Under the pieces are notes generated by a model. The model did no database searches, was not told where the DNA came from, and saw nothing but the letters and a program-made list of their open reading frames with translations. Source: a virus (taxonomy: Duplodnaviria > Heunggongvirae > Uroviricota > Caudoviricetes). Taken from it: a stretch of DNA of 9,181 bases. Of the stretch, positions 5,545-5,981 are shown piece after piece. Each line of letters opens with the position of its first letter. Positions within the stretch are counted from its first letter, which is position 1. The stretch lies in IMG/VR virus record IMGVR_UViG_2548877011_000016; one strand, written 5' to 3'. A program made the position numbers and the translations under genes.

Positions 5545-5766
5545 TTAATCCCCGTCCGTTGTTTTTCTTAAAACAGCTTCTGTCACGAAATCAGCATAGT
5601 TAGCGGCAATATCAAGAATATTTAGCCCTGTATCTCTGTGCTCATCAGTGCAAAGAAAGAAAAAAGCCACCCGCATAATTTCAGATATTGACGAAAGCGC
5701 ATCAGCCGCATCATCAGGAACGCCGGAAAATTCTTGTTTCAGGGAATTAAAACGATCATCACGCAT
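5545..5766 (-). CDS. Hypothetical acidic protein (73 aa); its start lies immediately 3' of a G9 homopolymer
   Basis: ATG at 5766 is preceded on the minus strand by GGGGGGGGGTT (plus-strand C-run 5769-5777). It overlaps the 3' end of upstream gene 5739..5981 by 28 nt in a different frame. Confidence 0.5.
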   Translation of the reverse strand: MRDDRFNSLKQEFSGVPDDAADALSSISEIMRVAFFFLCTDEHRDTGLNILDIAANYADFVTEAVLRKTTDGD

Positions 5767-5981
5767 AACCCCCCCCCATTTTCACAATCAGCAACAAGAA
5801 TATTTTTAGCGTCATTCAGCGACCGCGTTGCGATGTATCGGATACATTCCAGGGCGAACTGTGTCCGGTCTTTCTGTTCTTCTCCCTGCGCAAGCTCTGC
5901 AGTGCATTCAATATCGATAAGCGCGTGCATCAGCGTAGTGAGCGCGGCGGCTGCTGCGTCCGGTGTGGTTTTATTGCACAT
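5739..5981 (-). CDS. Hypothetical protein (80 aa from the ATG at 5981); 3' end contains the G9 tract
   Basis: ATG at 5981 is preceded by AGGAGG with a 6-nt spacer and overlaps the stop of the Icd-like gene by 11 nt. The C-terminus ...ENGGGLCVMIVLIP is encoded across the G9 tract. The track ORF 5739..6023 starts at an upstream codon without an RBS. Confidence 0.5.
   Translation of the reverse strand: MCNKTTPDAAAAALTTLMHALIDIECTAELAQGEEQKDRTQFALECIRYIATRSLNDAKNILVADCENGGGLCVMIVLIP
5769..5777. repeat. Homopolymeric C9 (G9 on the coding strand) at the junction of two overlapping ORFs
   Basis: Nine consecutive C at 5769-5777 on the plus strand. One extra G would fuse ORF 5739..5981 in frame with ORF 5545..5766. 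Confidence 0.9.

What the first reader, a model, noticed from the sequence alone, without database searches (positions are those of the whole stretch)
5739..5981. G9 homopolymer at the overlap of two small ORFs: possible slipped-strand switch, programmed frameshift or assembly error
Nine consecutive G on the coding strand (plus-strand C-run 5769-5777) encode the GGG of the upstream ORF's C-terminus and form the ribosome-binding region of the downstream ORF. A single G insertion would fuse the two ORFs into one protein of about 150 aa; a deletion truncates the upstream ORF. Tracts this long are classic phase-variation sites and also common sequencing-error sites, so the true gene structure is ambiguous.
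Basis: seen in the sequence. Interest (0 to 1): 0.55.

Follow-up and report, generated by a model that had tools for sequence, protein, structure and literature searches.

The report
Variable poly-G joint between two genes
A run of nine G's sits where two small genes of an E. coli satellite prophage meet; its length differs between strains (6 to 13 G's), so the genes are sometimes fused and sometimes separate, and both parts stay intact either way.

Summary
A G9 run (plus-strand C9, 5769-5777) lies where an 80-aa ORF (5739-5981, minus) overlaps a 73-aa ORF (5545-5766, minus). G10 gives one 145-aa ORF and G8 shortens the first ORF.

It is not an assembly error. At least 28 complete E. coli genomes match 901 nt including G9 at 100%, 182 carry an exact G9 copy, and the 80-aa product occurs on at least 1000 contigs.

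The tract is a real mutational hot spot. Among 737 complete genomes that carry the conserved junction, G6, G7, G8, G9, G10 and G11 occur in 7, 382, 204, 182, 28 and 3 genomes. About one third of independent haplotypes are in frame (fused). Loci with identical flanks can differ in tract length, yet length is stable within clones (O157:H7 has G7, O55:H7 has G8).

Both halves stay intact under purifying selection in split and fused alleles, and each occurs as a stand-alone gene in more distant satellites. The G-run pairs with the anti-Shine-Dalgarno sequence about as well as the operon's best ribosome-binding sites.

Best reading: translationally coupled genes whose G-rich ribosome-binding site slips during replication, giving a tolerated fusion/split polymorphism. 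High-frequency phase variation is untested, and programmed frameshifting is not supported. The element is a CP-933C/OI-51-type P4-like satellite, and the tract lies upstream of rgdR.

The parts
5769..5777 (-). G9 homopolymer. It encodes Gly-Gly-Gly near the C-terminus of the upstream ORF and is the predicted Shine-Dalgarno region of the downstream ORF. It is a hypermutable joint.
   Evidence: sequence. (alleles G6-G12 seen in DNA; G13 inferred from the protein junction ENGGGGVM of P0103). (duplex with the anti-SD sequence -11.1 kcal/mol).
5739..5981 (-). N-half gene (80 aa in the G9 allele, WP_001342316-type). Its start overlaps the stop of the Icd-like gene.
   Evidence: Matches phrog_5146. 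Stand-alone homologues in L089 and L090. pN/pS 0.32-0.38 among split alleles. The exact product occurs on at least 1000 contigs.
5545..5766 (-). C-half gene (73 aa, WP_001204070-type), with its own ATG two bases after the G-run.
   Evidence: Matches phrog_24341. Stand-alone homologues sit behind unrelated upstream genes in L091, L092 and L094. pN/pS 0.34-0.38 among split alleles.
5739..5766 (-). 28-nt overlap of the two reading frames, specific to the G6/G9/G12 frame class. It adds the tail LCVMIVLIP to the N-half protein.
5971..6162 (-). Icd-like gene, the first protein gene of the operon, translationally coupled to the N-half gene.
   Evidence: annotation. (NF033153, 57 bits). (SD duplex -12.1 kcal/mol).
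6217..6304 (-). C4-type antisense RNA upstream of the Icd-like gene, giving the operon an immunity-region layout.
   Evidence: RF01695, 73.8 bits against a gathering score of 45.
6326..6402 (-). isrK-type sRNA with a terminator-like hairpin.
   Evidence: RF01394, 66 bits. (terminator-like site at 6348-6330).
5310..5543 (-). Third small gene (77 aa), immediately downstream of the C-half gene.
   Evidence: Matches phrog_2196. Homologues follow the N-half gene directly in L089 and L090.
5005..5304 (-). DUF4222 protein, identical to the O157:H7 CP-933C/OI-51 protein WP_000770178.1 (RgdR type, RGD at residues 20-22).
   Evidence: Literature: PMC3378721, PMC10877973.
3608..5008 (-). RepA-family helicase, the last gene of the coupled series.

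Best explanation
The G-run is the G-rich ribosome-binding site, and also a Gly-Gly(-Gly) linker, at the joint between two small, separately functional genes. These genes lie in the early operon (isrK, C4 RNA, icd-like, N-half, C-half, ORF3, rgdR, repA) of a P4-like satellite prophage of the CP-933C/OI-51 type.

Because the site is a homopolymer of 7 or more G's, it gains and loses G's, most likely by replication slippage. Natural alleles therefore fall into three frame classes. G7, G10 and G13 fuse the two genes into one protein of 144-152 aa. G8 and G11 give two genes with an ATGCGTGA stop/start overlap. G6, G9 and G12, the class of this window, give two genes with a 28-nt overlap.

In all three classes both polypeptide parts are still made, because the C-half keeps its own ATG behind a strong Shine-Dalgarno match. 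The polymorphism is therefore tolerated and close to neutral. It drifts on the time scale of clone divergence. It is not an error, not a dying pseudogene and not a programmed recoding site.

Shown here: the tract and its allelic series, the three frame classes, the intactness and purifying selection of both halves, the stand-alone occurrence of each half, the Shine-Dalgarno complementarity, and the stability within clones.

Inferred: replication slippage as the mutational mechanism, independent initiation at the C-half ATG, and functional equivalence of the fused and split states.
For: 1. The allelic series is real. In 85 IMG/VR loci the tract is G7 27 times, G8 34, G9 18, G10 4 and G11 2. Exact-length core queries found 737 complete E. 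coli genomes (883 places) with the junction. Genomes with at least one exact copy number 7 for G6, 382 for G7, 204 for G8, 182 for G9, 28 for G10 and 3 for G11, and one has a probable G12.

2. In-frame alleles make up about one third of independent haplotypes: 28 of 85, and 27 of 71 in a sample retrieved without requiring the run. Neither sample differs from a uniform split across the three frames (p = 0.14 and 0.15).

3. The tract changes faster than its flanks. Groups with identical +-300-nt flanks hold lengths {8,9,9,9,10}, {9,10} and {7,9}. The share of pairs that differ in tract length is 1 of 11 for identical 1-kb flanks, 5 of 6 at 3-5 flank differences, and then sits at the random level of 0.70.

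4. The tract is stable within clones. 28 genomes are 100% identical over 901 nt including G9. Fourteen genomes, mostly O111-type strains, share G10 with identical +-45-nt flanks, most of them at a different chromosomal position (about 1.75-2.07 Mb). O157:H7 has G7, while O55:H7 strains have G8 with identical +-45-nt flanks.

5. Split alleles are not decaying. The N-half is intact in 35 of 35 G8 alleles and 19 of 20 G9 alleles. The C-half is full length in 31 of 35 and 18 of 20. pN/pS is 0.32-0.38 in split alleles and 0.29-0.49 in fused alleles.

6. The halves are independent modules. The N-half occurs alone, directly followed by an ORF3 homologue, in L089 and L090. The C-half occurs alone behind unrelated genes in L091, L092 and L094, and fused to a different N-terminus in P0138. 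PHROGs holds separate families for the fused form, the N-half and the C-half. All four combinations of N-half type (68 or 74 aa) and C-half type (73 or 77 aa) occur.

7. Where checked, gene junctions in this operon family have an SD inside the 3' end of the upstream gene plus a stop/start overlap; the clearest are those read directly. The G-run's duplex with the anti-SD is -11.1 kcal/mol, against -12.1 and -11.6 for the icd-like and N-half sites and about -6 for the three sites downstream.

8. For the window's own N-half haplotype, the G9-type and G8-type split products each occur on at least 1000 contigs. The fused G10 and G7 products occur on 152 and 258 contigs.
Against: No protein or RNA data exist, so independent initiation at the C-half ATG and equivalence of the fused and split states are inferences.

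The run is kept pure in 65 of 71 junctions, although its third-codon positions are synonymous and the flanks are diverged. This hints at selection on the run itself, for ribosome-binding function or for mutability. Strict neutrality of the tract is therefore unlikely.

The roughly 45 nt around the tract are unusually conserved at synonymous sites. I cannot tell whether that reflects initiation signals, dual coding or a recombination joint.

Counts in complete genomes are per genome and phylogenetically non-independent (O157:H7 inflates G7). Some IMG/VR and long-read assemblies may carry homopolymer errors.
Confidence: 0.65

Rival explanations
1. The tract is an adaptive contingency locus. It is kept long and pure because stochastic switching between fused and split forms, or the resulting change in translational coupling to ORF3, rgdR and repA, gives the satellite or its host a bet-hedging advantage.
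For: The tract is retained as a pure run of 7 or more G's in 65 of 71 junctions, although the alleles differ at 20-40% of synonymous sites. All three frames are common. Tract length differs between loci with identical flanks. There is a precedent in Enterobacteriaceae: the rmpA poly-G (G10) of K. pneumoniae encodes an inter-domain linker and switches at high frequency (bioRxiv 10.1101/2025.09.12.675794). The operon has a C4/icd immunity layout, in which translation of upstream genes can matter for downstream expression (the P1 immI analogy is from my own knowledge).
Against: Tract length is uniform within clones sampled many times: 28 identical G9 genomes, O55:H7 with G8 and O157:H7 with G7. 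Unlike rmpA there is no modal in-frame length, and frames are close to 1:1:1. No state removes either open reading frame. Purity of the run is equally explained by its role as a ribosome-binding site.
Confidence: 0.2
2. The tract is a recoding site. Ribosomal -1 frameshifting on G_GGG_GGG, or RNA-polymerase slippage on the G-run, makes the fused protein from the G9 allele, so DNA tract length is irrelevant because the products of all three frames are always made.
For: The zero-frame heptamer G GGG GGG is present, and a -1 shift would yield exactly the product of the G10 allele. A frame distribution near 1:1:1 would be expected if DNA frame did not matter. Low-level frameshifting on a G7/G8 run is documented for herpes simplex virus thymidine kinase (review PMC5009743).
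Against: A programmed site keeps one fixed frame relationship. Here homologues would need -1, +1 or no shift depending on the allele. No stable structure is predicted downstream (MFE -29.8 against a shuffle mean of -29.2, z = -0.16). The E. coli RNA-polymerase slippage study I read tested only A and T runs (at least 7 T, more A; PMC6260861), and I found no data for G runs. Conserved stand-alone homologues of each half show that the fused product is not required.
Confidence: 0.07
3. The gene was originally a single ORF of about 145 aa, and the G9 and G8 alleles are frameshift-inactivated pseudogenes on their way to decay.
For: Fused proteins of 144-152 aa are widespread down to 74% identity, with one at 52% identity (P0125). 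PHROGs has a full-length family, phrog_2512.
Against: Split alleles are about two thirds of independent haplotypes, and their halves are intact with pN/pS 0.32-0.38, the same range as fused alleles. The more distant relatives carry the halves as separate genes. The downstream half keeps an ATG and a strong Shine-Dalgarno match.
Confidence: 0.06
4. The G9 run is an assembly or sequencing error at a homopolymer.
For: Homopolymers of this length are error-prone on several sequencing platforms (general knowledge). One close relative, strain 10159, differs only by having G10.
Against: The window is 100% identical over 901 nt to at least 28 complete genomes from several submitting groups. 182 complete genomes carry an exact G9 copy. 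The exact 80-aa product occurs on at least 1000 contigs. Two independent assemblies of strain 2013C-3277 give the same match length; G9 was read directly in one of them.
Confidence: 0.02

Closest known systems
rmpA poly-G tract of hypervirulent Klebsiella pneumoniae (homopolymer-mediated phase variation in Enterobacteriaceae; bioRxiv 10.1101/2025.09.12.675794)
   Same: Both are intragenic poly-G runs of about 9-10 bases in an enterobacterial mobile-element gene. Both encode a flexible Gly linker between two domains, and both are length-polymorphic across the phylogeny.
   Different: In rmpA the modal length is the in-frame G10 in all lineages, and out-of-frame alleles lose the DNA-binding domain (ON/OFF). 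Here no in-frame mode exists, the frames are about 1:1:1, and the downstream part keeps its own start codon and ribosome-binding site. The result is fused versus split, not ON versus OFF. High-frequency switching has been shown for rmpA and has not been tested here.
Translationally coupled overlapping genes with the Shine-Dalgarno sequence inside the upstream ORF (the usual junction type in this operon family)
   Same: The ATG lies 2 nt after a G-rich SD, and the upstream stop lies just after the downstream start (ATGCGTGA in G8 alleles). The same design is seen at the icd-like/N-half junction and in L089, L091, L092 and L094.
   Different: The SD here is a pure homopolymer long enough to slip, so the upstream stop is gained and lost, and in one third of alleles the two genes become one.
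P1 immI-type and P4-type immunity operons (C4/CI antisense RNA, then icd, then downstream effector genes)
   Same: C4 RNA and isrK lie upstream of an Icd-like gene, followed by small coupled genes and a replication helicase. The element has an integrase, an AlpA-like gene, a capsid gene and a small terminase, and is integrated at a tRNA-Pro gene.
   Different: The N-half and C-half have no detectable similarity to P1 Ant, to P4 proteins or to anything in the INPHARED phage collection. The comparison rests on gene position only.
CP-933C / OI-51 cryptic prophage of E. coli O157:H7 and its regulator RgdR (PMC3378721)
   Same: The gene order is the same and the DUF4222 protein is identical (WP_000770178.1). 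The homologous joint in O157:H7 carries G7 and a fused 154-aa ORF.
   Different: The window's copy is integrated at tRNA-Pro next to yejM instead of next to pepT/roxA, and it carries the G9 split allele. In the passages I searched, the RgdR paper does not describe the tract.
G7/G8 run in herpes simplex virus thymidine kinase (compensatory low-level frameshifting; reviewed in PMC5009743)
   Same: It is a G homopolymer in a coding region where an indel allele can still yield some full-length product.
   Different: It is a viral eukaryotic system in which the non-shifted product is useless. Here both products are conserved genes and no frameshifting has been shown.

Membership tests
Homopolymeric-tract (SSR) phase-variable contingency locus | A mononucleotide run of about 7-8 bases or more within or next to a coding region | tested here: met
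   G9 at 5769-5777, minus strand.
Homopolymeric-tract (SSR) phase-variable contingency locus | Tract length polymorphic among closely related strains | tested here: met
   Alleles run from G6 to G13. Loci with identical flanks differ in tract length.
Homopolymeric-tract (SSR) phase-variable contingency locus | Length changes switch expression of a product ON and OFF | tested here: not met
   Length changes alter the reading frame, but no frame removes either ORF. The C-half keeps its ATG and SD, and both halves are intact and constrained in split alleles. Expression itself was not measured.
Homopolymeric-tract (SSR) phase-variable contingency locus | High-frequency reversible switching within a clonal population | not testable with these tools
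   No read data are available. Indirectly, tract length is uniform within clones sampled many times, which argues against very high rates.
Programmed -1 ribosomal frameshift site | Slippery heptamer X XXY YYZ in the zero frame | tested here: met
   G GGG GGG lies in the frame of the upstream ORF.
Programmed -1 ribosomal frameshift site | The same frame relationship between the two ORFs conserved in homologues | tested here: not met
   All three frame classes are common: 27, 28 and 16 of 71 junctions.
Programmed -1 ribosomal frameshift site | A stimulatory downstream RNA structure | tested here: not met
   MFE z-score -0.16 against shuffles.
Programmed -1 ribosomal frameshift site | Trans-frame protein detected | not testable with these tools
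   This needs a Western blot or mass spectrometry.
Transcriptional slippage site (E. coli RNA polymerase) | A run of A or T of the length shown to slip | tested here: not met
   The run is G/C. The E. coli RNA polymerase study I read tested only T and A runs (PMC6260861).
Translationally coupled overlapping gene pair | SD-like sequence upstream of the downstream start, inside the upstream ORF | tested here: met
   Duplex with the 16S rRNA 3' end is -11.1 kcal/mol, comparable with the best sites of the operon.
Translationally coupled overlapping gene pair | The upstream stop overlaps or closely follows the downstream start | tested here: met
   28-nt overlap in G9 alleles and ATGCGTGA in G8 alleles.
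Translationally coupled overlapping gene pair | Each partner conserved as a gene in its own right | tested here: met
   Stand-alone N-half in L089 and L090. Stand-alone C-half in L091, L092 and L094. pN/pS 0.3-0.4.
Sequencing or assembly artefact | Tract length not reproduced in independent assemblies | tested here: not met
   28 genomes are 100% identical over 901 nt, 182 genomes carry exact G9, and the exact product occurs on at least 1000 contigs.

The most novel reading that the evidence does not exclude
The poly-G joint is a selected contingency element of a satellite prophage. By toggling between read-through (fused) and termination-reinitiation (split) inside a C4/icd-type immunity operon, it would set the amount of translation, and hence protection from transcriptional polarity, that reaches ORF3, RgdR and the RepA helicase. 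RgdR is an activator of LEE type III secretion in EHEC. It could also change the activity of a helper-phage-directed factor. Lineage differences such as O55:H7 (G8, split) against O157:H7 (G7, fused) would then carry a regulatory phenotype.
Probability: 0.12. Interest if true: 0.65.

Novelty: new member of a known kind. Interest (0 to 1): 0.35.

Why it matters
For annotation, neither the two-ORF form nor the one-ORF form should be flagged as frameshifted or erroneous. Both are natural alleles, and tract length is a cheap marker that separates lineages (O157:H7 G7, O55:H7 G8, the window's element G9).

Biologically, it is a clear case in E. coli, a species with few documented hypermutable repeats, of a homopolymer that repeatedly fuses and splits two genes without destroying either. 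It illustrates how a G-rich ribosome-binding site can drive gene fusion and fission in mobile elements.

It would matter more if tract state affects expression of the downstream virulence regulator RgdR or the satellite's replication. That is untested.

Tried and rejected
1. The two halves and the next ORF are tandem paralogues. Rejected: hhalign probabilities are 1.5% or lower.

2. Functional assignment of the protein. Nothing was found in Pfam, NCBIfam or PADLOC. PHROGs gave only families of unknown function. PDB sequence hits have E about 0.9. There was no tblastn hit in 50,697 phage records.

3. Structure. The AlphaFold2 model from a 16-sequence alignment has mean pLDDT 58 and pTM 0.43. 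It is too weak for fold search and was used only to note two helical hairpins joined by a low-confidence linker (residues 72-90).

4. A frameshift-stimulating RNA structure. None was found.

5. Distribution outside E. coli. The scan of GTDB species representatives found only Shigella flexneri, with G8. The whole-library HMMER search found only 38 clusters at 50% identity.

6. Exact tract counts within single haplotypes using 98-100-nt queries. The tool counts 98.98% identity as at least 99%, so the identity bands mix exact and one-off matches. From these calls I used only the rows listed at 100%. The 44-49-nt core queries are not affected.

7. Literature. I found no paper describing this tract.
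Full report
**1. Observation**

The minus strand of the window carries a tight series of small genes. The plus-strand C9 run at 5769-5777 is G9 on that coding strand, and it is the only homopolymer of 9 or more bases in the 9181-base window.

The upstream ORF runs from ATG 5981 to its stop at 5739-5741. It has 80 aa and ends ...ADCENGGGLCVMIVLIP. The downstream ORF runs from ATG 5766, two bases after the run, to 5545. It has 73 aa and begins MRDDRFNSLK. The two ORFs overlap by 28 nt.

- G7, G10 and G13 give one ORF of 144-146 aa.
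- G8 and G11 end the first ORF at ...GGGYA*, with the stop inside ATGCGTGA.
- G6, G9 and G12 give the LCVMIVLIP tail.

By composition alone a run of this length is not improbable: 13 of 200 shuffles of the window reach it. Its significance comes from comparison with homologues.

**2. Context**

The window is 100% identical to E. coli chromosomes in which the element sits between yejO and tRNA-Pro/yejM. The annotated genes are an integrase, an AlpA-like HTH protein, an ash pseudogene, an Icd-like protein, the two ORFs in question, a third small ORF, a DUF4222 protein, a RepA-family helicase, a small terminase and a major capsid protein. This is a P4-like satellite or cryptic prophage.

Rfam finds a C4 antisense RNA (6217-6304) and isrK (6326-6402) just upstream of the Icd-like gene. 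The early operon therefore has a C4/icd immunity layout.

The DUF4222 protein is identical (WP_000770178.1) to that of the CP-933C/OI-51 prophage of O157:H7. That protein type, RgdR/ECs1581, activates LEE type III secretion (PMC3378721, PMC10877973).

**3. It is not an assembly error**

- At least 28 complete genomes match 901 nt around the tract at 100%, including G9.
- A 47-nt core query with exactly nine G's is matched perfectly in 182 complete genomes.
- The exact 80-aa product is recorded on at least 1000 contigs.
- Two independent assemblies of strain 2013C-3277 give the same match length, and G9 was read directly in one of them.

**4. The tract is polymorphic**

Strain 10159 carries G10 in an otherwise identical element and is annotated with one 145-aa ORF.

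A protein search with that fused form returned 473 hits. Nearly all of the best 120 are full-length proteins of 144-152 aa. Their junctions read ENGGVMRDD, ENGGGVMRDD or ENGGGGVMRDD, which correspond to G7, G10 and G13.

A DNA pattern scan of IMG/VR gave 85 loci with G7 27 times, G8 34, G9 18, G10 4 and G11 2.

In complete E. coli genomes, exact-length core queries found the joint in 737 genomes (883 places). Genomes with at least one exact copy:

| Tract | Genomes |
|---|---|
| G6 | 7 |
| G7 | 382 |
| G8 | 204 |
| G9 | 182 |
| G10 | 28 |
| G11 | 3 |
| G12 (probable) | 1 |

A second IMG/VR sample was retrieved by protein motifs and did not require the run. It gave 71 N-half/C-half junctions. 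Of these, 65 are pure runs of 7-11 G's and 6 are interrupted (GGGGAGGGGGGG, GGGGTGGG, GGGGGTGG). The frame classes are 27 fused, 28 G8-type and 16 G9-type. Neither IMG/VR sample differs significantly from a 1:1:1 split of frames.

**5. Tempo of change**

Groups of loci with identical +-300-nt flanks hold different lengths: {8,9,9,9,10}, {9,10} and {7,9}. With 1 kb of flank, the share of pairs that differ in tract length rises with flank divergence:
- identical flanks: 1 of 11 pairs differ;
- 1-2 flank differences: 2 of 4;
- 3-5 flank differences: 5 of 6;
- beyond that, the share sits at the random level of 0.70.

The tract therefore changes about as often as a kilobase of flank acquires a few substitutions. 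It is a hot spot.

Within clones the length is constant. There are 28 identical G9 genomes. Fourteen genomes, mostly O111-type strains, share G10 with identical +-45-nt flanks, most of them at a different chromosomal position (about 1.75-2.07 Mb). O157:H7 carries G7, giving a fused 154-aa ORF, while O55:H7 strains (CB9615, RM12579, DEC5A/B/E, TB182A, USDA5905) carry G8 with identical +-45-nt flanks.

This is the pattern of a heritable polymorphism that flips on the time scale of clone divergence. It is not evidence of culture-level phase variation, which I could not test without reads.

**6. Are split alleles broken genes?**

They are not.
- In G8 and G9 alleles the N-half is intact in 35 of 35 and 19 of 20 loci. 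The C-half is full length in 31 of 35 and 18 of 20. Fused alleles are similar.
- pN/pS is 0.32-0.38 for both halves among split alleles and 0.29-0.49 among fused alleles, with pS of 0.16-0.39.
- A whole-library HMMER search found only 38 clusters at 50% identity. They include stand-alone N-halves and stand-alone C-halves that start exactly at the internal Met.
- Their contigs show the N-half followed directly by an ORF3 homologue, with no C-half (L089, L090). They show the C-half behind unrelated genes (L091, L092, L094) or fused to a different N-terminus (P0138).
- PHROGs holds separate families for the fused form, the C-half and the N-half.
- The two N-half types (68 and 74 aa) and the two C-half types (73 and 77 aa) occur in all four combinations. 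The joint is therefore also a recombination boundary.
- The halves are not paralogues of each other.

**7. What the run does**

Junctions in this operon family follow one design. An SD sits within the last codons of the upstream gene, and the stop overlaps or closely follows the next ATG. Examples are caggaggtgtgccATGtgcaaTAA at the icd-like/N-half junction, caggaggtggggcATGcaTAA in L089 and cagggggGTAAACATG in L094.

The G-run occupies the SD position for the C-half. Its predicted duplex with the 3' end of 16S rRNA is -11.1 kcal/mol. That equals the strongest sites in the operon (-12.1 and -11.6) and is far stronger than the next three sites, which are about -6.

I therefore read the G8-type arrangement (...GGGYA* with ATGCGTGA) as the family-typical layout and probably the ancestral one. 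The run is an SD that became long enough to slip.

The AlphaFold2 model is weak (pLDDT 58). It places the Gly residues in a low-confidence linker between two helical hairpins. That is consistent with a fusion that does not disturb either part.

**8. Recoding**

A -1 ribosomal shift on G GGG GGG would produce the G10 product from the G9 allele. Three points argue against a programmed site. Homologues occupy all three frame relationships. No downstream structure stands out (z = -0.16). The E. coli RNA-polymerase slippage study I read tested only T and A runs (PMC6260861).

Low-level adventitious frameshifting on G runs is known from herpes simplex virus thymidine kinase (PMC5009743) and cannot be excluded here. 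Nothing indicates that it is required.

**9. Comparison with what is known**

The closest documented case is the rmpA poly-G of hypervirulent Klebsiella pneumoniae. It is also an enterobacterial intragenic G-run that encodes an inter-domain linker. There the in-frame G10 is modal in every lineage, and out-of-frame alleles lose a domain. Here there is no in-frame mode, and the downstream part has its own start.

The locus therefore works like a slipped-strand hot spot laid over a translationally coupled gene pair. It meets the sequence-level criteria of a contingency locus. It does not meet the ON/OFF criterion, and it has not been tested for high-frequency switching. I found no publication that describes this tract.

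**10. Verdict**

Length variation is real, assembly error is excluded, and programmed frameshifting is not supported.

The most likely explanation (confidence about 0.65) is a tolerated fusion/split polymorphism generated by replication slippage in a G-rich ribosome-binding site between two independently functional satellite genes.

The more interesting alternative is an adaptive switch that tunes the fused or split protein, or the expression of the downstream rgdR and repA. It remains possible at about 0.1-0.2 and is directly testable with isogenic tract variants.

Interest is modest (0.35), and I rate it a new member of a known kind.

Noticed in passing
window 6217-6304 (-) and 6326-6402 (-): Rfam matches to C4 antisense RNA (73.8 bits) and isrK (66 bits) lie directly upstream of the Icd-like gene. 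A terminator-like hairpin sits at 6348-6330. The early operon therefore has a P1 immI-like / P4-like immunity layout.
   Followed up: partly
window 5005-5304 (-): The DUF4222 protein is 100% identical to WP_000770178.1 of the O157:H7 CP-933C/OI-51 prophage (RgdR/ECs1581 type, RGD at residues 20-22). RgdR is a published activator of LEE type III secretion. Here it sits in a different integration site, tRNA-Pro next to yejM.
   Followed up: partly
L096 (O157:H7, G7) against hits H113-H120 (O55:H7, G8): The sister lineages O157:H7 and O55:H7 differ by one G in this tract (fused against split) and have identical +-45-nt flanks. The length looks fixed within each lineage.
   Followed up: partly
L132-L134, L138, L139, L094 (G6) against L150 (G7): A second type of junction lies upstream of the same C-half gene (attcaGGGGGGtaaacATG). 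It also carries a short G-run that differs in length between loci and changes the upstream gene's C-terminus.
   Followed up: no
window about 5745-5795 and homologous loci: About 15 nt before the tract and at least 23 nt after it are nearly invariant, even at synonymous sites, while the rest of both genes differs at 20-40% of synonymous sites. All four combinations of N-half and C-half allele types exist, so the joint may serve as a recombination linker.
   Followed up: partly
P0055, P0074 and related proteins (217-221 aa): In some elements a different upstream gene (MSQEITLQQAAERAH...NAEGY) is read in frame into the N-half, giving a three-part fusion. P0074 occurs on 52 contigs.
   Followed up: no
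L003 1172-1361 (strain 2013C-3277): In this otherwise near-identical element the Icd-like gene is annotated as frameshifted, and the match to the 901-nt query is 2 bases shorter (899 against 901 bases).
   Followed up: no
window 6163-6630 (-) and 6557-7222 (-): The ash-family gene upstream of the icd-like gene is annotated as an incomplete pseudogene in the identical RefSeq record, and a further partial hypothetical gene lies next to it. The island also lacks most of the morphogenesis genes seen in the O157:H7 copy. It looks like a degraded satellite.
   Followed up: no
window 1-498 (+): The left end of the window is the 3' part of the autotransporter gene yejO, which is annotated as frameshifted in the identical RefSeq record.
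   Followed up: no
window 2662-2668 (C7) and 2619-2624 (G6): Two further short G/C runs lie upstream of the small-terminase gene. I did not check whether their lengths vary between strains.
   Followed up: no
window 5734-6093 (+): A 119-aa ORF runs antisense through the tract (it reads ...NPPPF...). The pN/pS pattern fits the minus-strand frames, so this ORF is probably spurious. It was not tested separately.
   Followed up: no
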